This document shows, piece by piece, positions 2,087 through 57,849 of a stretch of DNA of 64,000 nucleotides. The notes beneath the pieces were generated by a model, which saw nothing but the letters and a program-made list of their open reading frames with translations, made no database searches and was not told the origin of the DNA. The stretch comes from a virus (Duplodnaviria > Caudoviricetes). Within the stretch, counting starts at the first letter, position 1. The number at the start of each line of letters is the position of its first letter. A program made the position numbers and the translations under genes. The stretch is taken from positions 1-64,000 of IMG/VR virus record IMGVR_UViG_3300027740_000003, one strand, 5' to 3'.

Positions 2087-3241
2087 CTATATTTTGTATG
2101 CTAATGCTTCTGTTATCATTCCAAGCGTAGCAAAGTCTACCAAATCAGAATTTAACAAGTCTCTAACTGTTTTTACTACAACGGTTGTTCTTTCCGAATC
2201 AGCTTCGACTCCACGCACCTGGTCTTTTGTATCAATTAAATGTTGAATATCTTTATCTGATATTGGTGCACAGAACAATTCCTGCTTGTGAATAGAAAAA
2301 GTTCCCATTCCTTGTCTATTGCTCATCTGAGATAAGTCTGACGGCTTGATTTCAATACCCGTTTCCTCACGAATTTCGTCAATAATTACCTTCTCAGGGC
2401 TATTTTTGGTTGTTGAAGAGCCTCCTGGAAGCTCATATACAAAACCATCCTTAGATGTATTGCCAGGAGAACGGAATTCTCTTACCAAAACAACCCTAGT
2501 TTCAAGAAAACTTTTTCCTTGCTCATATAATACAGCCTGAACAACCGGGGTTCTTCTAATAATGAACTCATTAACCTTAATTCTGTTCTCTTCAGGTATA
2601 AATACCTTTACATGAATAGCAAATGAGAACAAAAATCCGTTGCCAACCAAGAATGACCATAGAGGCTTGGCATATTTTAATTCATGCCCGGCCTTTTTTT
2701 GGACAGAATACCACTCTTTAAAGGCAGAATGGTTCCAAAAAATGGACGGAACCCACATTTCTCCATCATTTCTTGGAGTTGCCGGGGTTCTATCAATAGC
2801 TTCTTTACAAGCGTCCTCCAAAGATGAATGAACCTTAATTTTCTTTTCTTTTGCTGTCCAATCAAGATAATTCATCTTTGGAGCATCATCCGGTCTGCCA
2901 TAAACAACCCGGCCAGAACTACAATACAAACCAAACTCTACGTTGGTTGTAAATGCAGGCATATCTTGAAGCTCTCTTGGTACCCAAAAGAGAATTATAT
3001 CAGCAGATTGCATTGCAAGACGTTCCCATTTGATTTGATCGTCTGCACTGAAATCCTTTCCCTCGGGCCCGTCTTCATACTCAGGAACATATACTGTTCC
3101 GTCGTACCCCAGCTTTTCCAGCAAAGCTAACGCCTCGGGACGCCAAGATTTTACATTGGGATCCCTCGGAGTTGGGCCGGCCAGAAATAGGCTTCTAGAT
3201 ATAGAAGTCGGGAAGGAACTGCAAGAATACCTAATATCCAT
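2087..3241 (-). CDS. Nucleoside 2-deoxyribosyltransferase-like domain fused to NUDIX hydrolase
   Basis: N-term LFLAGPTPR..SWR..A, QIKWE..AM..ADIILFWVPR...TTNVEFG; C-term ELPGG...EIREETGI NUDIX-like box. Confidence 0.8.
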   Translation of the reverse strand: MDIRYSCSSFPTSISRSLFLAGPTPRDPNVKSWRPEALALLEKLGYDGTVYVPEYEDGPEGKDFSADDQIKWERLAMQSADIILFWVPRELQDMPAFTTNVEFGLYCSSGRVVYGRPDDAPKMNYLDWTAKEKKIKVHSSLEDACKEAIDRTPATPRNDGEMWVPSIFWNHSAFKEWYSVQKKAGHELKYAKPLWSFLVGNGFLFSFAIHVKVFIPEENRIKVNEFIIRRTPVVQAVLYEQGKSFLETRVVLVREFRSPGNTSKDGFVYELPGGSSTTKNSPEKVIIDEIREETGIEIKPSDLSQMSNRQGMGTFSIHKQELFCAPISDKDIQHLIDTKDQVRGVEADSERTTVVVKTVRDLLNSDLVDFATLGMITEALAYKI

Positions 3242-3246
3242 TTATT

Positions 3247-4107
3247 TCACCATTTGTCGTCATCATCATATCCGTTATCATGACAACTATAACCGTCATC
3301 ATCATAATCATCATCATCTTCGTCTTCTTCGTCTTCCTCATCATAGTCTGCGGAAGCTCCATATAGAGGAGACTCTTTATACTCTGCTTTGATCTCTTCC
3401 AGCACAGTAAATGCACACACTCTCATTTTTGCTTGATTATAATCTGTTGGGACGGCAACAACGTCTTTTGGATTTACTTTAACAGCAACCAACCGCCCAC
3501 TACCAGAATGGTAAAAATTACAAGCATATTCGTAATTAGCAACGTGAAGACCATAAGAACATGTTTGAGTAGGGTCTTCATTTACCCTGTTCCTAGGCAT
3601 AGAAACTTCAGCACCAATACTGTTATCAACTTTATTGGTGTAAAAGTCTTTAAAATTATCACTAACTCTACGATATGCTAGAAAACATCCATCGACAGTA
3701 AGAGGATGATTGTTCTTTTCCAAGAAATCATGTAGTTGTTGAACGCTACGATAGGATGGGTTTAGATTAAGATTAGCCCAGAACCTAAGCAAAGGCTCTA
3801 CCGGAAGGTTGTTCTTGGCAAAATCAAGAATTCTCATTGAGAGAGAATATGGCAAAGCCTCGTCGCCAACATATACCACATCCCCTTTTACAGTAAAGGT
3901 TGAACTAAACTTATCTGAAATTGGTTTGGTGGGAGTCAGTAAATCAGGAATGATTTCCCAATTTTTATCTGCAATTGCTTTAACCACTTCAGCAAATAAC
4001 TTATCTGTGGTTAGAACCGAACGAGGTTGCCCATCTGGGCAAGTAATAGTAATCTGCTTGTCGGTCTTGATGAAAGGAAGTCCAGTTTTTTGCCAATCAG
4101 TATTCAT
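3247..4107 (-). CDS. rIIB: rIIB-like protein
   Basis: LHDFLEKNNHPLTVDGCFLAYRRV, MPRNRVNEDPTQTCSYGLHV, VKVNPKDVVAVPTDYNQAKMRVC; acidic tail; follows rIIA. Start moved to ATG at 4107. Confidence 0.88.
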   Translation of the reverse strand: MNTDWQKTGLPFIKTDKQITITCPDGQPRSVLTTDKLFAEVVKAIADKNWEIIPDLLTPTKPISDKFSSTFTVKGDVVYVGDEALPYSLSMRILDFAKNNLPVEPLLRFWANLNLNPSYRSVQQLHDFLEKNNHPLTVDGCFLAYRRVSDNFKDFYTNKVDNSIGAEVSMPRNRVNEDPTQTCSYGLHVANYEYACNFYHSGSGRLVAVKVNPKDVVAVPTDYNQAKMRVCAFTVLEEIKAEYKESPLYGASADYDEEDEEDEDDDDYDDDGYSCHDNGYDDDDKW

Positions 4108-12695: not shown

Positions 12696-14009
12696 TCATT
12701 TCTTTATCTGTTGCATCCACCAGGCCCTGGACCGGTCCATTATTGCTTTGGCAACCTGTTTCCACTGTAAACCTGATTCCTCTAGCTCGGCAACGCTCTC
12801 CCTCTGCACATCCTGGCCGAATTCTTTTAGAAATTGACCAATATTTTTCATGTCAATTCCCCCAACCTTCTGTGCAATCTGTTCTAATCTATTATCTGTA
12901 CAAAACAACTCAACAAATTCGTTGATAGTAGAGACAAATTCTGGATTAATCTGTGCTGGTTGCTTTGAATTAACTACTTTATGTGCCTCTCCTTTGGCTT
13001 TAAATACCAAATCTGTATAATCTTGTTTGCTGATTAAAGTTTTGCCATCTAGAATAGGATACATTACAACCCCTTCCCCTATTCCTTCTATTCCAAATGT
13101 TTCTTTTACCCAAGGATCACATTTCTCCACATCGGCTACCATTTGGTTGATAACTTCTGTTGACTTTTTTAATTGATCCTCATCAAAATAGTCTAACTCA
13201 ATTTCGTTCCCATACCAAGGAATGATATAAACATCAGGCTCATTGTGTGGGCCAATGATTTTGGCAATTTCTGCCGGATCTGTTTCTAAATATCCATCAA
13301 TGGAACCAATTTGAATAGCAAAGATGGCCATAATCCGTTTATCAATCTTTGAAATGGCACATCTTTTTTGAATGGATTGTCCACAAAACTCTCCAAAAAT
13401 AACCAAATGATCTTTAATGCCCAAGCTATCTGCGTTCTTTCTAACATTAAGAAAAAAGTTATATTTAGCTACTGTCCAGGCAGCTGACCCCATGTTGTCT
13501 TCTTTGACACTGATGACTCTAGCATGACTTTGAGGGATAACTTTCAAACCATCATAATCAGATGGAGTCAGTTGAATACCAATATTCGTACCGTCAGCTT
13601 TGCATTTTGCCCGGTAAATGACCTTTCTTTCAAGCCCTTGTTTTTGCAAATCTCTTCGTACATTAAATAGGGACTCGATATGTGGCCAAGCAATTAAACT
13701 ACCGGCAGCCGGTTCTGGCTTGCAATATTCTTCTGACAAATCCGTTCCTTCTGAAGCTCCAGTTTTGCCTAATGCCATTCCATAAGAAGGGATATTTCTA
13801 ATTTTATGTGTTCTAATCGCCGTTCCATCTTTTAGTATAGATCCTGCCAAAACGATGGTGGCAATATCCCCAACCTCATATACGTTTTCTAGATTTGCTA
13901 CAATCTGAATTGGATCTGTTTTTTGAGGACAAACGAATTGGTATAGTTTTAAAGCATCGGCATTAGGATGCTTTTCGGCTTTAATACAACGCATTGCTAT
14001 TGCTGTCAT
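12696..14009 (-). CDS. RNA ligase (Rnl2-like) with N-terminal tRNA-binding OB domain
   Basis: N-term EKHPNADAL...QIV...GD...IRNIPSYGM (PheT-like OB); KADGTN (motif I), FGEFCG, EGIGEGVV, FKAKGEAH. Confidence 0.8.
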   Translation of the reverse strand: MTAIAMRCIKAEKHPNADALKLYQFVCPQKTDPIQIVANLENVYEVGDIATIVLAGSILKDGTAIRTHKIRNIPSYGMALGKTGASEGTDLSEEYCKPEPAAGSLIAWPHIESLFNVRRDLQKQGLERKVIYRAKCKADGTNIGIQLTPSDYDGLKVIPQSHARVISVKEDNMGSAAWTVAKYNFFLNVRKNADSLGIKDHLVIFGEFCGQSIQKRCAISKIDKRIMAIFAIQIGSIDGYLETDPAEIAKIIGPHNEPDVYIIPWYGNEIELDYFDEDQLKKSTEVINQMVADVEKCDPWVKETFGIEGIGEGVVMYPILDGKTLISKQDYTDLVFKAKGEAHKVVNSKQPAQINPEFVSTINEFVELFCTDNRLEQIAQKVGGIDMKNIGQFLKEFGQDVQRESVAELEESGLQWKQVAKAIMDRSRAWWMQQIKK

Positions 14010-21330: not shown

Positions 21331-21944
21331 TGTTCATCTGTTTGAACATGGTTTTTTCTCACATACTTAGCAATAGATGTTTGGAACTGTTCATCAAAGA
21401 AACCTCCCTCGATTCTAATAACCAACCCTTCTCTTTCGTCCCCATAAAAAGATGGCCTCTTAGCCTCTTCAAGAATATAGTTTTCTAATTGTTTCTCGGA
21501 AAAGAACCATTTGTTTTTTGCAATAACTGGAACAGTTAATAATCCAAGGCTTTCAGCTATTGTTTCAACTGTAGGCCACATATACCAAGCGGATTCTTTG
21601 TCATCATCGTATCTTGCTGCAAAAATCATCAGGTATGCAGGCAATGAATCATAATAAATAGAATGTTGTGCAAATAACCATTCTCCATATATAGAAACAT
21701 TCTTTGGAAGAATATATTTAATAGAAGCGTGAATTGATTTTAATTGATCAAATGAAGGATGGTTAGGAGAACCCGAATGGCTTCTAGCAAAACAATTATC
21801 TTTGGAAAGAAAGACATTAGACCCGTCTAATTTTTCCGTAATTATCAATGGTTTGTTCAGCAGGCACGAGACATTATGCATAATTTTATCATCATTACTT
21901 GCTCCTGGGGAGAATGGAAGATGATATGTTCGTGGGTATTTCAT
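21291..21944 (-). CDS. Compact RNA ligase-family nucleotidyltransferase
   Basis: KYPRTYHLPFSPG, TEKLDGSN, YGEWLFA, EGLVIR, AKYVR. Confidence 0.8.
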   Translation of the reverse strand: MKYPRTYHLPFSPGASNDDKIMHNVSCLLNKPLIITEKLDGSNVFLSKDNCFARSHSGSPNHPSFDQLKSIHASIKYILPKNVSIYGEWLFAQHSIYYDSLPAYLMIFAARYDDDKESAWYMWPTVETIAESLGLLTVPVIAKNKWFFSEKQLENYILEEAKRPSFYGDEREGLVIRIEGGFFDEQFQTSIAKYVRKNHVQTDEHWKHKQIVKNGLK

Positions 21945-37776: not shown

Positions 37777-38514
37777 CTACAAATCTGCCAGCATATTAAC
37801 AATCCCAGGATTAACATTCTGTTCAATCCATGGAATTAAATCATGGCGAATCCTGTTTCTAGTATATTTGTTAGTAGAGTTAGACGCATCTTCCGACCAG
37901 GAAAGGTTCCAAATTGCTGCGTATCTTTCAATATCTTTTCTTGTTAACTTAAGCATGGGACGCTTGAACACAACGCCTCCCCACTCTAGATCTTTTAGAT
38001 CTTTTACCTCATATCCTTTGAGGAATTTAAACAGTTTCGTTTCAACATTGTCATTGGCATTATGAGCCAAAAGTCCAATCCCACCATAATCTACAGCAAT
38101 CACATCAGATAAAACATTATACCTGGCGTCTCTTGCTAAAGCCTGGATATTACTGTTTTTTTTATCAATATTTACAGTGAGAATTTTTACATCAAATCCA
38201 AGCTCTAGTCCTAGATTAGAAATAAAAGAAATGTCAGTATCTGTTTCTTCTTTGGAACGAAGCTGATGGTTAACATAGATAAGACATTTTTTAATAGGAA
38301 TATTAGATATAAATGTTTTAGATGTAATTGAAAAAGCGTGAGCCATTACTGTTGAATCAATTCCTCCCGAACACGCAATGGCAATAGGAATATAGTGTTC
38401 ACCAACAATAGAATTTAGAAAAAGTCTAAATGACGAATAAATATTCCTGCAAAATTTTTTATCATCTGTTGTAATTTTGTCGGGCCACAAAATATTTTGT
38501 CTGTCTGGTTTCAT
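37777..38514 (-). CDS. tilS: tRNA(Ile)-lysidine synthetase, N-terminal catalytic domain only
   Basis: IACSGGIDST PP-loop, VNHQLR, ARDARY, AHNANDNVET, RPML, DASN, RNRIRH. Confidence 0.9.
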   Translation of the reverse strand: MKPDRQNILWPDKITTDDKKFCRNIYSSFRLFLNSIVGEHYIPIAIACSGGIDSTVMAHAFSITSKTFISNIPIKKCLIYVNHQLRSKEETDTDISFISNLGLELGFDVKILTVNIDKKNSNIQALARDARYNVLSDVIAVDYGGIGLLAHNANDNVETKLFKFLKGYEVKDLKDLEWGGVVFKRPMLKLTRKDIERYAAIWNLSWSEDASNSTNKYTRNRIRHDLIPWIEQNVNPGIVNMLADL

Positions 38515-38521
38515 AATTTAG

Positions 38522-38594
38522 TAGCCCTTGTTGGGATCGAACCAACGACCGATCGATTATGAGTCGATTGCTCTAACCACTGAGCTAAAGGGCC
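38522..38594 (-). tRNA. tRNA with CAT anticodon, Ile2 type; CCA not encoded
   Basis: Cloverleaf GGCCCTT TA GCTC AGTGGTTA GAGC A ATCGA CTCATAA TCGAT CGGTC GTTGG TTCGATC CCAAC AAGGGCT A; C4-G69 and C5-G68. Confidence 0.92.
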
Positions 38595-41909: not shown

Positions 41910-42407
41910 TTATATTGTTCTCAGTTCTTTTCTTACATCCATTAATACTTTGCCAAGCAAATTGGTTCCTTTCCATTTGCTTTCATCCTGTGCTTCCGGA
42001 TCGCCTTCCGCCAACCCAATCCCCCATATTTTATCATATGGAGAAGCTTCCACTAGAACTTTATTTTCCGTATCTAATAGTTGTTTTGATAACCAACTGT
42101 TTTGTGCAAACTTGTGCTGAACAGCCAAGTACATAGCTGGAATACATTTTAGTTTCCACACTTCCGGATCAAAGTTTTTAACTTGTCTTCCTAATTTCTT
42201 GCATTGAATTGGGGTATTATTTACATTGCACATCTTTAAAATATCATTGGCAGTTTCTGTGTCTGAAAATGAAATAGCTTTCAACCACATATAGGATTGC
42301 TCTGACCAATAAAAATGATGCCCCTCCATATCAAATTGAGCGGGATAAAAATTGGAATATATATCCTCTTCTCCCCAGAACAAAACATACTTATCTGTTG
42401 TGATCAT
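41910..42407 (-). CDS. NADAR (YbiA/DUF1768) family protein
   Basis: YSNFY, SEQSYMWLKA, KKLGRQVKNFD, KFAQN, LVEASPYDKIWGIG, GTNLLGKVLM. Confidence 0.92.
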   Translation of the reverse strand: MITTDKYVLFWGEEDIYSNFYPAQFDMEGHHFYWSEQSYMWLKAISFSDTETANDILKMCNVNNTPIQCKKLGRQVKNFDPEVWKLKCIPAMYLAVQHKFAQNSWLSKQLLDTENKVLVEASPYDKIWGIGLAEGDPEAQDESKWKGTNLLGKVLMDVRKELRTI

Positions 42408-42564
42408 TGTGGTCCTTATTTATTGTAAGTAGCGAGAAGATTTTTGTATAGCAAAGAACGCAAAGATGATGTTTTTGTACCAAGTTATTGTTGGGCGGCC
42501 CAAATAATAGACCTCCAGGTTCTTTTAATTCAGAACCACATCTAATACAATCTACTTTAATCAT
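42391..42564 (-). CDS. Small zinc-ribbon protein (57 aa)
   Basis: Manual translation MIKVDCIRCG...HHLCVLCY. Confidence 0.55.
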   Translation of the reverse strand: MIKVDCIRCGSELKEPGGLLFGPPNNNLVQKHHLCVLCYTKIFSLLTINKDHNDHNR

Positions 42565-42566
42565 CT

Positions 42567-42884
42567 TTATATTTCTTTATCTGCTTCCTGCAATGCTGCA
42601 ATTAAATGTTCCACATCTTCTTTGCTCATTACGATCTCGCCACAATCACCATACCGAGACTTGTATCCAATAACATGTTTAATTGCTTGCCACAATCTTT
42701 TATACCATTGCCAATTATAATTGAGATGATATCTGATATACATCTGTTCATAATCTTTTTCATTCTTTTTTGGCCGCCAAGAAAATCCAATAATGTGTTC
42801 CAATTCGCCACAAGTACATTGAACAATATAACTTTTCTCATCTTGCCATTTAGGATCTTTCCTAATCTTTTTAAATATGCTCAT
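42567..42884 (-). CDS. Hypothetical protein
   Basis: CTCGELEH, WYKRLWQAIKHVIGYKSRYG; start reset to ATG 42884. Confidence 0.6.
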   Translation of the reverse strand: MSIFKKIRKDPKWQDEKSYIVQCTCGELEHIIGFSWRPKKNEKDYEQMYIRYHLNYNWQWYKRLWQAIKHVIGYKSRYGDCGEIVMSKEDVEHLIAALQEADKEI

Positions 42885-42889
42885 TGAGT

Positions 42890-43771
42890 TTACCTTGATT
42901 GAAGAAGTGAGATTTTTTGCAAAACACAAGAAGTATGTTTGTTGCACAACCTGCTGTTAAAAAATAGCTCTGGAACCACACTGCATTTTGCAATATCTAA
43001 TGGACAGATAATCTTTTCACCATCAGGAAATATGTTTCCAAACCTACAACGTTTTACCGTATCAAAGCTTTGCGATTTTGTTCTCAATACTCCCCGTGTA
43101 GCAATATCAATTCGTGGAATGTTCCCACTATATAAATTAATAAATGTTTGTGCTATGTTTGCATAATCGTCATTAGAAATAGTATCTGGCGTATCCTCCC
43201 AATAATCGTTAGTAATAGCAATGTCTCGGATTGAACTAAGATATAACGATGTACAATTAAACCTAGCTTCTGCTTGTGCAGCAAGATCGTATAAACAAGA
43301 AACATTATCTTTGCGCAACATTAATACTATCTTCGTTGGCCAATCTGTTTCTTGAACTTTAGATAACGGCTTTTCGGATGTATCAGATCCTAGAACCCCA
43401 ATACGCAAATCTACATTTGTATTAGGAAGATTTTTAATAGATTCTAGGTGTCTTCCATTGGTGTATATTGTTGTCAATAGATTGCGTTTAATATTCTCAG
43501 AAATAATATCACCAAGCTGTGGATGAAGAAGAGGTTCGCCTCCAAGCAGAGTTATTTTCCCAATATGTTGTGAATACTTATCAAGAATACTACGATAAGT
43601 AGCAAGGCTCATGTCTTGATTATCTAATTTGTGGCCATAAAAACAACCTTTACACCTAAGATTACAACGATTAGTAATGAATACTTGAAGTGTATTTACG
43701 GGCAGTACAGAAATTTCTTGCCATTTTGATTGATCATAATCCAAAATATATGATTGTTTAGATGCAGTCAT
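42890..43771 (-). CDS. Radical SAM protein
   Basis: ITNRCNLRCKGCFY (CxxxCxxC), LLGGEPLLHP, YTNG; Cys-rich C-terminus. Confidence 0.9.
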   Translation of the reverse strand: MTASKQSYILDYDQSKWQEISVLPVNTLQVFITNRCNLRCKGCFYGHKLDNQDMSLATYRSILDKYSQHIGKITLLGGEPLLHPQLGDIISENIKRNLLTTIYTNGRHLESIKNLPNTNVDLRIGVLGSDTSEKPLSKVQETDWPTKIVLMLRKDNVSCLYDLAAQAEARFNCTSLYLSSIRDIAITNDYWEDTPDTISNDDYANIAQTFINLYSGNIPRIDIATRGVLRTKSQSFDTVKRCRFGNIFPDGEKIICPLDIAKCSVVPELFFNSRLCNKHTSCVLQKISLLQSR

Positions 43772-44906
43772 TTTGAACAGACTCTTTCAACCACCCTAGA
43801 TATGTTTTGTCATTACAAACGGCCTTGCTTGGATCAACAGATAGTTTTGCAACTGGCCTGCCGTTTAGTTTTACTAATTTCATTACAATATTTAATGGTT
43901 TTACGCCAGGAATATCATTGGTTAAATGAGTTCCAATTCCATATATGGTTTTGATTCTGCCGTCAGTTTTAGTCTCAATCTGTTGGGCTTTTTTTACAGT
44001 TAATGCGTTGCTAAAAATAGCCGTTTTTCTTTTAGGATCAATGCCACAATTAGAATACATCTCTAGCATTCTATTTAGCCAAACAATCTCATCTCCACTA
44101 TCTTGTCTTACTCCGTCAAAAGTCTTTGCCAAAGAACCAGAAAAGTCTTTTACGAATTTATCTGTACCCAAAGTATCACTAAGAGCAATGCCCAGTTGCC
44201 CATTATATTCTTGTTGCCAGATCTCCAACATTCTTTTCTGAGAATCCATTGGATGAAACAACGCTTGGCCGGCAGAGATCCATTCATGAGCCATTGTGCC
44301 AACGGCAGGAATGTTATTCTGAGCGGCAAAAAGAACATTGCTTGTTCCAATGAATGTGCTTCTTGGAAGAGAAGAAGCTAGTGTTTTAACAACTTGTTCT
44401 TGCCAATACCCAGCTCTTCTTCTTCTTGTTCCCATATCAACTAACTTGATAGGGTTTGCTAATAGCGAAACAATTTTATCATTAAGAATAGCTGTGCCAG
44501 AATTTGCAGCGCAAAATGAATTAAAATATAATTCACTTACAGTGGCGAGAACTGGAACCTCGTACCAAATGGTATTGATCCATGGGCCTTTAATCGTAAT
44601 ATCAAGAAAACCTTGGTCATCAGAGATTTCAACATAACGTTGCGGATTTAGTTTAAAGTTGTCAATATAATCTAGAAAATCTTTGCTGATCCATTTGATG
44701 TTTTCTAATTGGCTAGTAGGTTTAGAAACCGTGGCCCATGTTGAAATCTCATTTATCAAATGATTTTTTAAAAATCCCAGTTCCGTTTCTGCGCCCCGAC
44801 AAATAAATTGATACTCAGCTGTTGCTCCAGGGAAATGATGGAACACAGCTTGAGCCATCGAAAATTTATAAGCGTCTTGATCTAAGAAATTATTCCAAAT
44901 TGCCAT
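43758..44906 (-). CDS. pncB: Nicotinate phosphoribosyltransferase
   Basis: DQDAYKFSM, DMGTRRR, GTSNV, GTMAHEW, LSDT, GVRQDSGD, YGIGTHLT, VMKL. Confidence 0.92.
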   Translation of the reverse strand: MAIWNNFLDQDAYKFSMAQAVFHHFPGATAEYQFICRGAETELGFLKNHLINEISTWATVSKPTSQLENIKWISKDFLDYIDNFKLNPQRYVEISDDQGFLDITIKGPWINTIWYEVPVLATVSELYFNSFCAANSGTAILNDKIVSLLANPIKLVDMGTRRRRAGYWQEQVVKTLASSLPRSTFIGTSNVLFAAQNNIPAVGTMAHEWISAGQALFHPMDSQKRMLEIWQQEYNGQLGIALSDTLGTDKFVKDFSGSLAKTFDGVRQDSGDEIVWLNRMLEMYSNCGIDPKRKTAIFSNALTVKKAQQIETKTDGRIKTIYGIGTHLTNDIPGVKPLNIVMKLVKLNGRPVAKLSVDPSKAVCNDKTYLGWLKESVQNDCI

Positions 44907-47779: not shown

Positions 47780-47815
47780 TTTCTATGATTCTTTCTAATG
47801 TTTTATTTAAAAAAT

Positions 47816-47883
47816 GATAGGAAATCGAGAAACCTGTTTTTAATCATTGGTAAATGTAGAAGGAAGGTTTCTTCTGGCCTATC
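47816..47883 (-). ncRNA. Candidate structured ncRNA, unit A
   Basis: GATAGG/CCTATC outer stem, AGAAACC/GGTTTCT inner stem, loop TTCCTTCT..ATTTAC..AAACA. Confidence 0.6.
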
Positions 47884-47892
47884 GTTAGTTGG

Positions 47893-47953
47893 TGATGGGG
47901 AATCGAAAAATCTGTTTCGTAAAATGAGAAGGAAGATTAATCATGGCCCATCA
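47893..47953 (-). ncRNA. Candidate structured ncRNA, unit B
   Basis: TGATGGG/CCCATCA outer stem, AATC/GATT inner stem, same loop motifs as unit A. Confidence 0.6.
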
Positions 47954-47962
47954 TTGTCTTGT

Positions 47963-50002
47963 TCAACCACTTAAAATCTTATTAAGATCTAGTGGAGTGT
48001 AATCTGTTTTCTCCTCGTTTTGGAAGATATATGAAGGTTGTTTTGGACCAACCTTAACTCCTTTATTCGAATATAATACCTGCCCTTTACCTCGACTACG
48101 AACCGACTCTTTGAATAAATCATGTACTGACGGAAGGGTATTTATATATTCCAAGAATGCCGGCATCTGTTCGCTAAGTGTTTGCCCATTCATAGCTGCA
48201 CTTCTAACATTAGACTTCAGATTAGCATCAATATAAATCAGCTCTTTGGTCTTCAAATCAATTAAACAAACATACTTTGTTTTGTACTCTCCAGTAAGTT
48301 TAAACGAAAGCTGACACCGCGATGGTTCAAATAATTTTCCTGCTTGTGGATCAGTTCCCCATTGCAATGCAGCAAAAACATCCTTTGCCGCAGAGAAAGG
48401 AACTCCAGAAAAGCAAAGAATATTCCAGACGGCATATCTAACACCGGATTTTACCAACTTGTCGGGATAGATATCGATTAGTTGTGCTGCTCGACCTTTC
48501 ATATCTGAACTATTACAAGGATCCCCAGAGAAAATAGCAGCATCATGGAAACGATTTGTATTCCAACAACATGCTCCAATCGATTTCCAGTTGGCATCAA
48601 AAAAGTTCCACCCATTATCAAACCAAGTGTTTCCATGTGATTTGTTTTCCCAGTAAGATGCTGTTCGAATAAACTTTACATCGTCTGGAATCTGGAACAC
48701 TGTGCCCCTAGCATAATTTCCTTCATCATTTCCATTTGGAAGCTTGATGGATTCCGTTGCGGGATCTAGGTTGAGAACCTTTGGAACGCGACGAGACAAC
48801 TCTTTCCCAATTGCAGAAGAAATTTTCTTAATACATTCTGCATTTACAGGACGCGGTGAACTAATTTTTAACCTTGCCCAATTTCCCTTGGGAGGAAATA
48901 CCCGATGCTGTCTTAGATTAGCCGTTTCAAGCAAACGCCGAATAGAAACAAGCTGCTGAATTGTTAGTTTAGGAACGATTGAAACAAAAGAACTAGCCGC
49001 ATGTTCCCCAAAGACATCAACAGTATGAACTAGACGCCGCATAAACTCTCCAGGACGAGCCGATAACATATCTAGTACCGCCAGGTCCTTTTGCTTCAAA
49101 AGCTTTTCTACTTTTGAATTAAAAGTTATTAAGCGGTTATTGTAGAGTTTGTCAGCAATATCAACAACGCTAGCATGAGATTCTTTAAAATCTCCGGGGT
49201 GGAGATTGTGAAATAATTTCTTCCATACATTCTTTCTTCTAGCTACATCTTCTGATAGATTATTACACCTATCTAGCATGTCCATTAAGAATCTTCGGGT
49301 CTTTCGATTGAAAGACTTGAACTTAACATTCTCTCGCAATGATACATCACCATCACTTAGTCCAGCTGCTAAACGCAGAACATCAGTAGCTGTCTTTACT
49401 TTAATCTGTATTCCAGAATTAATATAATGTTTAGCAAGACTTACCAGATTTTCTTTAAAAGAAATTTTAGAAAAGTCTACAACATGTTCTTCACTAAGAA
49501 AAAGAACATCTTCAAACTCGCTGTTCTTCCATTTAACTTTAATGGACAGCAATGAGTTCAACACGTTTTGTAATGTGTTTGGTTTCGCAGGCATTAAAGC
49601 AACAGACTTGCGTTCTGTTGGATTCATGTCTTCACGGGGTTTTGTTGGTTCCGTAAAGAGTTCTTTTGGAAAACCCCAATACATAAGGATTTGTGGGATC
49701 CAATATTCAGCTTCGCTCTTTGCTAGAACCTCAGCGGGGAAGTTTTTGTAAACAACAAACTTGCCAATCTTTCGGCTCTCACCAGTGATAAGTTTTAACT
49801 CTTTTTCTACGGCAAACCACCAATTTACTAGAGTAGAATGAGGAAGAACACTGACGGTTTTGTAAAAATCTGGGCTAAGACAATAGCCATAGTATTCCAG
49901 ATTCATTAGAATCGTAGCTAACGCTTCAGTATTTGGCTCTGATGGTTCAGATGTAGGAATCTGAACATAATTGTTTCGCAGTAGAATATTAACGTTATTC
50001 AT
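47963..50002 (-). CDS. Large helical (ROT/TROVE-like) protein with C-terminal TerD-like domain
   Basis: NILLR..LATILMNLEYYGY N-terminus, KENL, RPGEFMRRL, C-terminal FSGD...AAQLIDI...GVRYAVWNILCFSGVPF; start reset to ATG 50002. Confidence 0.65.
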   Translation of the reverse strand: MNNVNILLRNNYVQIPTSEPSEPNTEALATILMNLEYYGYCLSPDFYKTVSVLPHSTLVNWWFAVEKELKLITGESRKIGKFVVYKNFPAEVLAKSEAEYWIPQILMYWGFPKELFTEPTKPREDMNPTERKSVALMPAKPNTLQNVLNSLLSIKVKWKNSEFEDVLFLSEEHVVDFSKISFKENLVSLAKHYINSGIQIKVKTATDVLRLAAGLSDGDVSLRENVKFKSFNRKTRRFLMDMLDRCNNLSEDVARRKNVWKKLFHNLHPGDFKESHASVVDIADKLYNNRLITFNSKVEKLLKQKDLAVLDMLSARPGEFMRRLVHTVDVFGEHAASSFVSIVPKLTIQQLVSIRRLLETANLRQHRVFPPKGNWARLKISSPRPVNAECIKKISSAIGKELSRRVPKVLNLDPATESIKLPNGNDEGNYARGTVFQIPDDVKFIRTASYWENKSHGNTWFDNGWNFFDANWKSIGACCWNTNRFHDAAIFSGDPCNSSDMKGRAAQLIDIYPDKLVKSGVRYAVWNILCFSGVPFSAAKDVFAALQWGTDPQAGKLFEPSRCQLSFKLTGEYKTKYVCLIDLKTKELIYIDANLKSNVRSAAMNGQTLSEQMPAFLEYINTLPSVHDLFKESVRSRGKGQVLYSNKGVKVGPKQPSYIFQNEEKTDYTPLDLNKILSG

Positions 50003-50043
50003 GTTTTGGTCCAAATTGTACTGAGCTCGGCTCGTAGGTATCA

Positions 50044-50072
50044 AGTGTAATCACTTGGGGCCAGGCTGTCAA
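50044..50072 (-). promoter_or_regulatory. sigma70-type promoter for the TROVE-like/TerD gene
   Basis: TTGACA-17-TACACT. Confidence 0.7.
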
Positions 50073-56986: not shown

Positions 56987-57340
56987 TTATGGCCGCCAGC
57001 CTGCCGCCAGAGCCTCTCTCATCCAAGGTTTAGTGTCTTTTTCTAGCAACCCATCAGCAATTTTCTCTGTTGCCAGCAAGGCTTTTAGCGGATTTTTAAA
57101 AAACCTTGTTTTCTTTATTGTTCTGAAACGGTTTCTAGTTATAGGATAAAACGATACTTGACCAATATATCCTTTATCATTTCTATCCACTGAACAAAAA
57201 CAACTTTGCGGCCAAACAATGGTTTTAATATTTAATGTCCAGGAGCCATGTTGTAATGGCGGACTTGCCCAAAGATATTTGGTACCTTTTGGCGGAAAGT
57301 AATCTAATTTATATTCTCCACTCATTGTATTTTCTTTCAA
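56987..57340 (-). CDS. Hypothetical protein
   Basis: 117 aa ending WMREALAAGWRP. Confidence 0.6.
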   Translation of the reverse strand: MKENTMSGEYKLDYFPPKGTKYLWASPPLQHGSWTLNIKTIVWPQSCFCSVDRNDKGYIGQVSFYPITRNRFRTIKKTRFFKNPLKALLATEKIADGLLEKDTKPWMREALAAGWRP

Positions 57341-57849
57341 AAATATACAACAGATTGTTGTCGATTGGGGTATAGAATATTAAGGCCGCAGTTCTGGGCT
57401 TCTGGGAAGGTATCTAATGTATAATCATTTCCTTTTGTCTGGCGGGCATTTTTCTTGATATAATCACCACAAGCATCCTTAACAAGGAATACATTTATAG
57501 GTGTATTGTTAATGTGATAATAATTTTTCAAAGAATAAGCTGTTTCAAAAACACAAACACTAGATTGAACGCCACAGATTCTGACGTTATTATTTTGTAA
57601 TACTTTAACTACTTCATCGGAACCATCATCGGTAGTTTTTCTTACAAAGACTTTGTTAGTATATCCTTTGAGAGCTTTTAAAATGTAGTCGTTTGTCCTA
57701 CCATATCCAGCAAAATGGGCAACAACAATTTGCCTATTATATTTTCGGGCCAGAGCAATTTCTCTAAGGATAGGTTCCTTAAGAGAGGGTTGTCTTGCTG
57801 CCAAAAACCCCCGCTGCATATCAATAATAACTAAAGAATATGATTTCAT
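57337..57849 (-). CDS. Isochorismatase-family cysteine hydrolase
   Basis: IIDMQ, RKTTDDGS, ICGVQSSVCV, DACGD. Confidence 0.85.
   Translation of the reverse strand: MKSYSLVIIDMQRGFLAARQPSLKEPILREIALARKYNRQIVVAHFAGYGRTNDYILKALKGYTNKVFVRKTTDDGSDEVVKVLQNNNVRICGVQSSVCVFETAYSLKNYYHINNTPINVFLVKDACGDYIKKNARQTKGNDYTLDTFPEAQNCGLNILYPNRQQSVVYF

What the first reader, a model, noticed from the sequence alone, without database searches (positions are those of the whole stretch)
47816..50072. Tandem covarying structured ncRNAs directly downstream of a ROT/TROVE-like-TerD gene: candidate new ribonucleoprotein system
Seen (minus strand): unit B UGAUGGG-CCAUGAUU-AAUC-UUCCUUCUCAUUUUACGAAACA-GAUU-UUUCGAUUC-CCCAUCA, then 9 nt, then unit A GAUAGG-CCAGA-AGAAACC-UUCCUUCUACAUUUACCAAUGAUUAAAAACA-GGUUUCU-CGAUUU-CCUAUC. 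Both stems show compensatory changes (G-C to A-U in the outer stem, U-A to C-G in the inner), while the unpaired CCA / CGAUU internal loop and the UUCCUUCU..AUUUAC..AAACA loop are conserved. Unit B starts 10 nt after the stop of the 680-aa gene, which has its own promoter. Known: the helical-repeat + TerD architecture is described (Prok-RING_4-associated) as ROT/TROVE-like with a suspected RNA role, and Ro60/TROVE proteins bind Y RNAs that have a terminal stem, a bulged helix and a pyrimidine-rich loop. Inference: these are cognate Y-like RNAs forming a phage RNP, possibly linked to the RNA repair genes. I do not recognise the motif as a named family.
Basis: partly seen in the sequence, partly recalled or inferred. 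Interest (0 to 1): 0.88.

Follow-up and report, generated by a model that had tools for sequence, protein, structure and literature searches.

The report
Partner small RNAs of Ro-like TerD protein
Two small folded RNAs behind a giant-phage gene belong to an uncatalogued RNA family that sits beside this uncharacterised Ro60-like/TerD protein in phages and bacteria of many phyla, which points to an undescribed RNA-protein particle built on the plan of Ro60 and its Y RNAs.

Summary
On the minus strand, 9 nt after the stop of a 679-aa gene, lie two tandem RNAs (47952..47894 and 47883..47816). Both have a 6-bp outer stem, a CCA / AUUY internal loop, a 9-position inner stem and a loop that starts UUCCUUCU.

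The motif is not a local curiosity. A covariance model built from 29 copies finds it beside homologues of the gene in all 13 related phage loci and in 76 of 80 bacterial loci. In 44.7 Mb of five whole bacterial genomes every match lies beside such a gene. The 435-kb phage has only these two convincing copies. Covariation is very strong (92% of cells paired against 55% when shuffled). Rfam 15 has no family for it.

A few relatives carry a permuted tRNA-like insert that matches Rfam YrlA (bacterial Y RNA) below threshold. The protein has a firm TerD fold at its C-terminus. Its helical N-domain has Ro60 structures as its longest structural matches, but shows no sequence-profile similarity to TROVE.

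Best reading: a dedicated RNA partner forming a Ro60/Y-RNA-like particle. Binding and function are inferred, not shown. The proposed link to RNA-repair genes is not supported by conserved neighbourhood. This scan has already reached the same reading on other genomes (at least eight follow-ups).

The parts
50044..50072 (-). Sigma-70-like promoter site TTGACA-17-TACACT upstream of the protein gene. It probably drives the gene and, in this phage, both RNAs.
   Evidence: Consensus scan, 10 of 12 matches. This is a consensus match only. No -10-like box lies directly in front of unit B or unit A.
47963..50002 (-). Gene for the 679-aa partner protein (P0001). It has an N-terminal helical-repeat domain (about residues 1-430, Ro60-like by fold) and a C-terminal TerD-fold domain (about residues 437-616).
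47894..47952 (-). RNA unit B. Outer stem GAUGGG/CCCAUC (one more U-A pair at 47953/47893), CCA, inner stem UGAUUAAUC/GAUUUUUCG, loop UUCCUUCU (47934-47927) followed by CAUUUUACGAAACA, and 3' internal loop AUUC.
   Evidence: Sequence. Fold. Model R1 at 58.7 bits, E 9e-12.
47816..47883 (-). RNA unit A. Outer stem GAUAGG/CCUAUC, CCA, inner stem GAAGAAACC/GGUUUCUCG, loop UUCCUUCU (47865-47858) followed by ACAUUUACCAAUGAUUAAAAACA, and 3' internal loop AUUU.
   Evidence: Sequence. Fold. Model R1 at 68.8 bits, E 2e-14.
47809..47814 (-). U6 tract one base after the outer stem of unit A. It is the likely 3' end or terminator of the gene-B-A transcript.
   Evidence: Sequence. 44 of 179 family units have a run of at least 4 U within 10 nt downstream, against 3.9% of random positions. 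The terminator scan did not flag it.

Best explanation
Units B and A are two copies of a small (about 60-70 nt, up to about 135 nt in relatives) stable structured RNA. This RNA is the dedicated partner of the adjacent helical-repeat/TerD protein, and together they form a ribonucleoprotein on the plan of Ro60 with its Y RNAs.

The conserved 'handle' is inferred to be the protein-binding module. It comprises the G-C-closed outer stem, the CYA/CUUU internal loop, the 9-position inner stem and the single-stranded UUCCUUCU(A) tract. The rest of the apical loop is a free, exchangeable module. It is short here, a hairpin in many relatives, and a permuted tRNA mimic (T arm, closed acceptor stem, D arm) in some, as in YrlA. 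That module could recruit tRNA- or RNA-handling enzymes.

In this phage the two RNAs are probably transcribed with the gene from the promoter at 50072, cut out of the 3' UTR and ended at the U6 tract. In many bacteria each unit has its own -10 box.

Shown here: the RNA structure, by covariation; the exclusive genomic pairing with the gene; the TerD fold.

Inferred: physical binding; a ring-like Ro60 architecture; a role in RNA surveillance or tRNA-related quality control during infection.
For: Structure:
- 15 pairs. On 29 copies, 90.2% of cells pair against 57% when shuffled and 38-50% when slid, with 163 double-sided changes against 48.
- On 87 distinct copies, 92.4% against 54.7%, with 546 double-sided changes against 163.

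Pairing with the gene:
- The motif is present in all 13 phage loci found by the protein alone, upstream or downstream.
- In 10 related phage records, most of the 37 copies lie within about 2 kb of the gene and four lie further away.
- Of 40 IMG/VR loci found by the RNA pattern alone, 35 carry the gene in the same locus.
- 76 of 80 bacterial loci found by the protein alone carry the RNA directly beside it, and in 73 of them it is on the same strand.
- In five whole bacterial genomes (44.7 Mb) all 7 matches lie beside a family gene.
- No other gene is a conserved neighbour.

Independent RNA genes:
- A -10-like TANNNT lies 4-10 nt upstream of 42% of bacterial units, against 10% of control positions.
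- Some copies are on the opposite strand and a few are distal.
- Units sit inside tRNA arrays.

Y-RNA likeness:
- Sub-threshold YrlA matches cover the tRNA-like inserts (44.3 bits, E 9e-7; 39 bits, E 1e-7 in a scan of that 181-nt stretch alone).
- Folds of these units show the T arm, closed acceptor stem and D arm.
- The same gene-adjacent, multi-copy layout with a tRNA mimic plus plain hairpins is described for Rsr and its Y RNAs (PMC4201824).

Protein:
- Ro60 structures are the longest structural matches of the N-domain.
- The helical domain carries invariant or near-invariant arginines (R322; R123, R210, R236).
Against: No experiment or RNA-seq shows that the RNAs accumulate or bind the protein, and no RNA runs hold this soil-metagenome phage.

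The handle has no resemblance to the known Ro60-binding motif (GNCGAA / GGUCCGA; PMC4201824).

The window's own units lack the tRNA-like module and show no promoter of their own, so here they could equally be read as 3'-UTR elements.

The apparent invariance of UUCCUUCU is partly inflated, because I first located copies with that word and with patterns that contain it.
Confidence: 0.75

Rival explanations
1. The elements are cis-regulatory parts of the protein's own mRNA. They would be autoregulatory protein-binding sites, or stabilising or terminating structures in the 5' or 3' UTR, rather than free partner RNAs.
For: Nearly all copies are on the gene's strand and within about 200 nt of it. 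In this window they follow the stop codon by 9 nt, show no promoter of their own and end in a U tract. A protein that binds its own UTR would give the same exclusive co-occurrence.
Against: The copies lie upstream in some loci and downstream in others, and number 1 to 6 or more per locus. Three bacterial loci have them on the opposite strand. Distal copies lie 15-400 kb from the gene. One copy sits inside a tRNA array with no gene in the locus. -10 boxes are enriched directly upstream of units. tRNA-like modules make no sense in a UTR operator.
Confidence: 0.12
2. The RNAs act mainly by base pairing. The invariant pyrimidine tract UUCCUUCU would be a seed against a universal purine-rich target, such as Shine-Dalgarno-like sites or a conserved cellular RNA. 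The protein would serve only as chaperone or stabiliser.
For: The tract is single-stranded in every copy and invariant across phyla while the protein drops to about 25% identity. C/U-rich loops are typical seeds of bacterial sRNAs (general knowledge).
Against: No target was found or tested. The module occurs with the same tract in Bacteroidota and cyanobacteria, which use Shine-Dalgarno pairing little (the point about Shine-Dalgarno use is general knowledge). The C-to-A variant (UUACUUCU) is shared by all copies of a locus and so tracks the protein lineage, as expected for protein recognition. The internal-loop nucleotides are just as conserved and have no pairing role.
Confidence: 0.08
3. The pair is a conflict module of the toxin/antitoxin or abortive-infection kind. 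The tandem RNAs would neutralise or gate the protein, as in type III toxin-antitoxin systems.
For: The module is self-contained with two components and no conserved neighbours. Its distribution is patchy (2 of 61 sampled actinomycete genomes). It is present in phages and in bacteria. The RNA copies are tandem.
Against: The copies are not near-identical direct repeats; they diverge freely in the stems. No nuclease or toxin domain is detectable, only helical repeats plus TerD. There is no match in PADLOC. The RNAs may lie after the gene.
Confidence: 0.05

Closest known systems
Ro60 (Rsr) with Y RNAs in bacteria and phages: YrlA/YrlB of Salmonella, Yrn1/Yrn2 of Deinococcus (Rfam RF02553; PMC4201824), Ro60 of Thermus phage phiLo (PDB 9l5y; PMC12135203)
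   Same: One or several small structured RNAs are encoded directly beside the protein gene, sometimes co-transcribed with tRNAs. Each RNA has a basal stem 'handle' plus a variable apical module. Some copies carry a permuted tRNA mimic, and others are plain hairpins with pyrimidine-rich loops. The protein has a helical-repeat domain whose longest structural matches are Ro60, followed by a second globular domain. The pair occurs in bacteria and in large phages.
   Different: There is no sequence similarity to TROVE (Pfam and hhalign both negative). A TerD beta-sandwich stands in place of the vWA/MIDAS domain. The RNA handle (GG-CYA-U ... G-CUUU-CC plus UUCCUUCU) is unrelated to the GNCGAA/GGUCCGA Ro60 site. 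The window's units score nothing against the YrlA model. No RtcB or other repair gene is a conserved neighbour.
MXAN_6230/SCO0854 family RING-domain proteins (NCBIfam NF041916; Pfam Prok-RING_4, PF14447)
   Same: They share the helical domain plus TerD core (E 1.7e-65 to NF041916; Atlas TM 0.83 over residues 1-432).
   Different: The phage protein lacks the RING finger and scores far below the family cut-off (222 against 600 bits). I did not test whether the RING-bearing proteins also have the RNA partner.
TerD-domain proteins of the tellurite-resistance (Ter) system (PDB 3ibz, 2qz7, 2kxt)
   Different: It is fused to a 430-residue helical domain, is not in a ter operon, and is paired with an RNA.

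Membership tests
Ro60 / TROVE proteins (Pfam PF05731) | Sequence match to the TROVE profile | tested here: not met
   P0001 has no Pfam TROVE hit, and neither do its 57 aligned relatives. The 435-kb genome has no TROVE match. hhalign of the N-domain profile against an actinobacterial TROVE profile gives probability 0.1%. That TROVE profile is narrow (Neff 2.3), so the test is not very sensitive.
Ro60 / TROVE proteins (Pfam PF05731) | HEAT-like helical-repeat ring fold | tested here: inconclusive
Ro60 / TROVE proteins (Pfam PF05731) | C-terminal vWA domain with MIDAS motif | tested here: not met
Y RNA / YrlA (Rfam RF02553) | Match to the YrlA covariance model at its gathering score (69 bits) | tested here: not met
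   The window's units give no match even at E up to 10. Relatives with an insert reach 44.3, 39 and 29.6 bits, covering the tRNA-like part only.
Y RNA / YrlA (Rfam RF02553) | tRNA-like domain (T arm, D arm, closed acceptor stem) | tested here: not met
   It is absent from units A and B, whose loops are 22 and 31 nt. It is present in four relatives: L080, L105, L124 and L038.
Y RNA / YrlA (Rfam RF02553) | Ro60-binding motif GNCGAA(N)G near the 5' end (PMC4201824) | tested here: not met
   The 5' strand of the handle reads NNNNGG-CYA-U. In the YrlA alignment the basal stems do not align.
Y RNA / YrlA (Rfam RF02553) | Encoded next to the gene of the protein partner, often in several copies | tested here: met
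Y RNA / YrlA (Rfam RF02553) | Bound and stabilised by the protein in vivo | not testable with these tools
   There are no RNA runs for this phage, and the complex predictor does not take RNA.
TerD domain (Pfam PF02342) | TerD beta-sandwich fold | tested here: met
TerD domain (Pfam PF02342) | Match to the Pfam TerD profile | tested here: inconclusive
   P0001 itself has no hit. 4 of 58 aligned relatives match, best E 6.7e-6.
MXAN_6230/SCO0854 RING proteins (NF041916) | Score over the curated cut-off (600 bits) and presence of the Prok-RING_4 finger | tested here: not met
   221.7 bits, matching profile positions 383-717. No PF14447 hit. The protein is homologous but RING-less.
Intrinsic terminator | Short G+C-rich hairpin followed by a U tract at the end of a transcription unit | tested here: not met
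   The terminator scan does not flag either unit. Two thirds of the same-strand units located by the pattern parser in bacterial loci lie upstream of the gene. Conserved unpaired nucleotides and a 22-60-nt loop do not fit a terminator, although unit A plus its U6 tract may also end transcription.
Type III toxin-antitoxin RNA | Near-identical short direct repeats processed by an adjacent endoribonuclease toxin | tested here: not met
   The units diverge in both stems. The protein has no nuclease domain and no PADLOC match.

The most novel reading that the evidence does not exclude
The particle is not a Ro60 cousin doing RNA quality control but a new kind of RNA-gated sensor or decoy used in phage-host conflict. 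The TerD domain would sense Ca2+ or a nucleotide-derived signal. The invariant UUCCUUCU tract, with or without the tRNA-mimic module, would engage a universal component of the translation apparatus. Untested candidates, by eye only, are the GGAAGGAA of SRP RNA domain IV and enzymes that recognise a tRNA-Arg(UCU)-like CUUCUAA loop. Phages would then carry the module to protect or hijack translation against RNA-targeting defences.
Probability: 0.12. Interest if true: 0.92.

Novelty: new variant of a known kind. Interest (0 to 1): 0.8.

Why it matters
Ro60 with its Y RNAs is the only known particle of this design in bacteria, and its function there is still only partly understood. Here a second, sequence-unrelated protein family has its own covarying RNA family and the same modular logic: a handle plus an exchangeable module that includes tRNA mimics. 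The protein family comprises 2007 clusters at 50% identity and at least 263 species-representative bacterial genomes from many phyla, plus many large phages.

This would add a widespread RNA family to the catalogue and give a function lead for a large 'hypothetical/TerD family' protein group and its RING-bearing relatives. It also offers cultured systems in which the idea can be tested directly: Xanthomonas phages XacN1 and Xoo-sp13, and Brevibacillus, Bacillus, Niallia, Priestia, Paenibacillus, Dactylosporangium and Neolewinella. For phage biology, it suggests that jumbo phages carry, next to their tRNA sets, a dedicated RNA-handling particle.

Tried and rejected
- Rfam 15, at permissive E-values on the window and at gathering or E-value thresholds on 26 related loci, has no family for the handle. 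The only matches are tRNA, tmRNA, one cobalamin riboswitch and sub-threshold YrlA on the tRNA-like inserts.
- Simple terminators. In XacN1, Xoo-sp13 and a gut phage the homologue is followed by a plain terminator only, which at first looked like a refutation. The RNAs there turned out to lie upstream of the gene.
- Conserved protein neighbours: none in phage or bacterial loci, so there is no supported link to RNA repair. The phage does have RNA-ligase-family genes at 21360-21851 and 13311-13604, 26-34 kb away, but no RtcB.
- Expression: only two DNA runs of one soil sample hold the stretch, and there are no RNA runs. I did not lay reads.
- Sequence searches of the protein against PDB sequences, as a single sequence and as a profile, gave nothing. 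PADLOC gave nothing.
- TROVE homology by profile-profile comparison was negative.
- Literature: no paper in the held library combines TerD with Y RNA or covariation apart from the jumbo-phage overview, which only mentions ROT/TROVE proteins in some phages. Its supplements are not held, and the 2016 RNA-repair paper is not held.
- I considered by eye that the tract is an anti-Shine-Dalgarno mimic, an anticodon-loop mimic, or complementary to SRP RNA. None of these was tested, and they are kept only as leads.
- Complex prediction was not attempted, because the tool takes no RNA.
- I did not test whether RING-bearing paralogues have the RNA. None scored above the family cut-off in the 61 actinomycete genomes sampled.
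Full report
WHAT IS THERE

The window is the first 64 kb of a 435-kb IMG/VR jumbo-phage record from a soil metagenome. On the minus strand a 679-aa gene runs from ATG 50002 to TGA 47965-47963. A sigma-70-like site, TTGACA-17-TACACT, lies at 50072-50044.

Nine nucleotides after the stop begins unit B (47952..47894, or 47953..47893 with one more U-A pair). Ten nucleotides later comes unit A (47883..47816), followed by A and U6.

Comparison with relatives adjusts one detail. The inner helix has nine positions, and the internal loop is only CYA on the 5' side and four nucleotides (consensus CUUU; AUUC and AUUU here) on the 3' side.

IS IT MORE THAN CHANCE?

Homologues of the protein were collected without reference to the RNA, from GenBank phages and IMG/VR. 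At first the finding looked refuted, because in XacN1, Xoo-sp13 and a gut phage the gene is followed by a plain terminator.

A scan for the loop word then showed the same element in every one of the 13 loci. It is downstream in four and upstream in the rest, in one to six copies, always on the gene's strand.

An alignment of 29 copies has two helices of 6 and 9 pairs. 90.2% of cells are paired, against 57% in shuffles and 38-50% when the partner is slid. There are 163 double-sided changes against 48 expected, and 13 of 15 pairs show compensatory changes. On 87 distinct copies aligned to the model the figures are 92.4% against 54.7%, and 546 against 163. The stems are free to vary. G5, G6, C7, A9, UUCCUUCU, the A before the 3' strand of the inner helix, UU of the 3' loop and the CC that closes the outer stem hardly vary. 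Part of this invariance is built in, because copies were first located with that word or with patterns that contain it.

HOW SPECIFIC IS THE PAIRING WITH THE GENE?

I built a covariance model, R1, from the 29 copies.
- In the phage's own 435 kb it finds only the two units (E 3e-14 and 1e-11). The next hit is at E 0.02.
- In ten related phage records (3 Mb) it finds 37 copies. Most lie within about 2 kb of the gene and four lie further away.
- Going the other way, two pattern scans of IMG/VR for the RNA alone gave 40 loci. 35 of them hold the gene in the same stored stretch. Two of the other five are distal copies in contigs that carry the gene elsewhere, and two more are very short or cut at the locus end.
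- In species-representative bacterial genomes, 263 loci encode a relative (Actinomycetota, Myxococcota, Cyanobacteria, Bacteroidota, Bacillota, Planctomycetota, Proteobacteria and others). Of the best 80 loci, 76 have an R1 match directly up- or downstream. In three of these the match is on the opposite strand.
- In five whole bacterial genomes totalling 44.7 Mb, all seven R1 matches lie beside one of the six family genes.
- No other protein-coding neighbour is conserved, in phages or in bacteria.

The unit of inheritance is therefore the gene plus its RNA(s).

More distant cultured phages (RcXuper, LpeD, Weasels2, WXIN; 23-25% protein identity) have weaker matches in the unannotated gap beside the gene. 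Three of them carry a loop variant, UUACUUCU or AUACUUCU; the WXIN match is the weakest and has neither form. The variant is shared by all copies of a locus, for example all six units in L124.

IS IT A KNOWN RNA?

Rfam 15 gives nothing for the handle, at permissive thresholds on the window and on 26 related loci.

A few family members, however, carry a long insert in the apical loop: L080:108-240(-), L105:5081-5214, L124:5495-5640 and L038:4303-4435. The insert consists of a T arm, a closed 6-7-bp acceptor-like stem, and U/G-A followed by a canonical D arm. This is a tRNA opened at the anticodon, exactly the architecture of YrlA, the bacterial Y RNA.

Rfam's YrlA model matches these inserts below its gathering score: 44.3 bits (E 9e-7), 39 bits (E 1e-7 in a scan of that 181-nt stretch alone) and 29.6 bits. 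The basal stems do not align. Chen et al. (PMC4201824) describe the following for Rsr/Ro60:
- Y RNAs encoded next to the gene;
- co-transcription with a tRNA in Deinococcus;
- a protein-binding motif GNCGAA.

Their search was limited to genomes with an annotated TROVE protein, so this family would have been missed.

Our RNAs share the layout but not the binding motif. They also share the company of tRNAs. 17 of 41 phage loci have tRNA genes, two have a tmRNA, and in L058 a unit ends 4 nt before a tRNA-Met inside a 16-tRNA array.

THE PROTEIN

Pfam finds nothing significant, PHROGs places it in family 33734 of unknown function, and PADLOC finds nothing. It belongs to a large family: 2007 50%-identity clusters at E up to 0.001.

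NCBIfam NF041916 (MXAN_6230/SCO0854 RING-domain proteins) matches at E 1.7e-65, far below its cut-off. The protein is therefore a RING-less relative of those proteins. The Atlas gives TM 0.83 to that cluster.

I therefore call the protein Ro60-like in architecture, with TerD in place of vWA. It is not a member of the TROVE family.

HOW IT MOST LIKELY WORKS

Shown: a structured RNA under strong purifying selection for two helices and about 20 unpaired nucleotides, inherited only together with this gene.

Inferred: the handle is the protein's binding site, and the apical loop is a free module that in some lineages mimics tRNA. The particle would act on RNA, by analogy with Ro60/Y RNA, which gates Ro60 and tethers it to PNPase (PMC4201824).

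In bacteria many units have their own -10 box 4-10 nt upstream (42% against 10% at control positions). A quarter of units are followed by a U run (against 4%).

In this phage I see no such box. The two RNAs are probably made from the gene's transcript and released from its 3' UTR, ending at the U6 tract.

The function in infection is not known. The neighbourhood here consists of NAD salvage genes, NADAR, radical SAM, a UvrD-like helicase and DUF7448, and it is not conserved with the module. The RNA-ligase-family genes of the window lie 26-34 kb away, and there is no RtcB.

RIVALS

A cis-regulatory role in the gene's own mRNA fits this window. It does not fit the family as a whole, which shows both sides of the gene, opposite-strand and distal copies, own promoters, tRNA modules and copies inside tRNA arrays.

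A base-pairing role for the pyrimidine tract cannot be excluded, but it has no target. It also fits less well with the locus-wide C-to-A variant.

A toxin-antitoxin-like module has no support from domains or from the nature of the repeats.

NOVELTY

I found no description in Rfam 15 or in the held literature. [quoted passage not shown]

Earlier follow-ups of this same scan, on at least eight other genomes, reached the same reading. These are AI notes, not independent evidence. My tests were made before I read them and they agree.

I class the finding as a new variant of a known kind: the Ro60/Y-RNA design realised with another protein family and another RNA handle.

Noticed in passing
L058:3862-3925 (IMG/VR 3300014206_000056): A copy of the RNA sits inside an array of 16 tRNA genes and ends 4 nt before tRNA-Met (3930). 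No partner gene is present in the 11.9-kb locus. This suggests processing together with tRNAs and a partner gene encoded elsewhere.
   Followed up: partly
L059:2877-3299 (Rhodobacter phage RcXuper, OP186293.1 about 3230-3652): ARAGORN calls a permuted tmRNA in a 1.9-kb stretch that the record leaves unannotated, between a tRNA cluster and the partner gene. A weak R1 match (3453-3521) follows it.
   Followed up: no
L080:108-240(-), L105:5081-5214, L124:5495-5640, L038:4303-4435: These family members carry a permuted tRNA-like insert (T arm, closed acceptor stem, D arm) in the apical loop. The insert matches Rfam YrlA below threshold.
   Followed up: yes
L124, L061 (LpeD), L062 (Weasels2), L059 (RcXuper): The loop tract reads UUACUUCU or AUACUUCU instead of UUCCUUCU in all copies of these loci. 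The variant follows the locus and hence the protein lineage. I did not test co-evolution on a tree.
   Followed up: partly
L008:1590-3764: The partner gene is split into two ORFs (1590-2777 and 2799-3764). The cause could be a frameshift, a stop codon or an assembly error.
   Followed up: no
window 47798-47974 (+): A 58-aa ORF on the opposite strand overlaps both RNA units. It is probably spurious, and gene callers may annotate it.
   Followed up: no
window 37777-38594 (-): A tRNA with anticodon CAT (38521-38594) lies directly upstream of a PP-loop (TilS-like) gene (37777-38514). An earlier first-reader note reads this pair as tRNA-Ile2 plus lysidine synthetase.
   Followed up: no
window 13311-13604 and 21360-21851 (-): Matches to the RNA ligase family (PF09414) lie 26-34 kb from the RNA-protein module. 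The 435-kb genome has no RtcB and no TROVE protein.
   Followed up: partly
window 41910-44906 and 57337-57849 (-): These stretches hold NADAR, a radical SAM protein, nicotinate phosphoribosyltransferase and an isochorismatase-fold protein. Together they form an NAD-related gene set near the module, and it is not conserved with the module in other loci.
   Followed up: no
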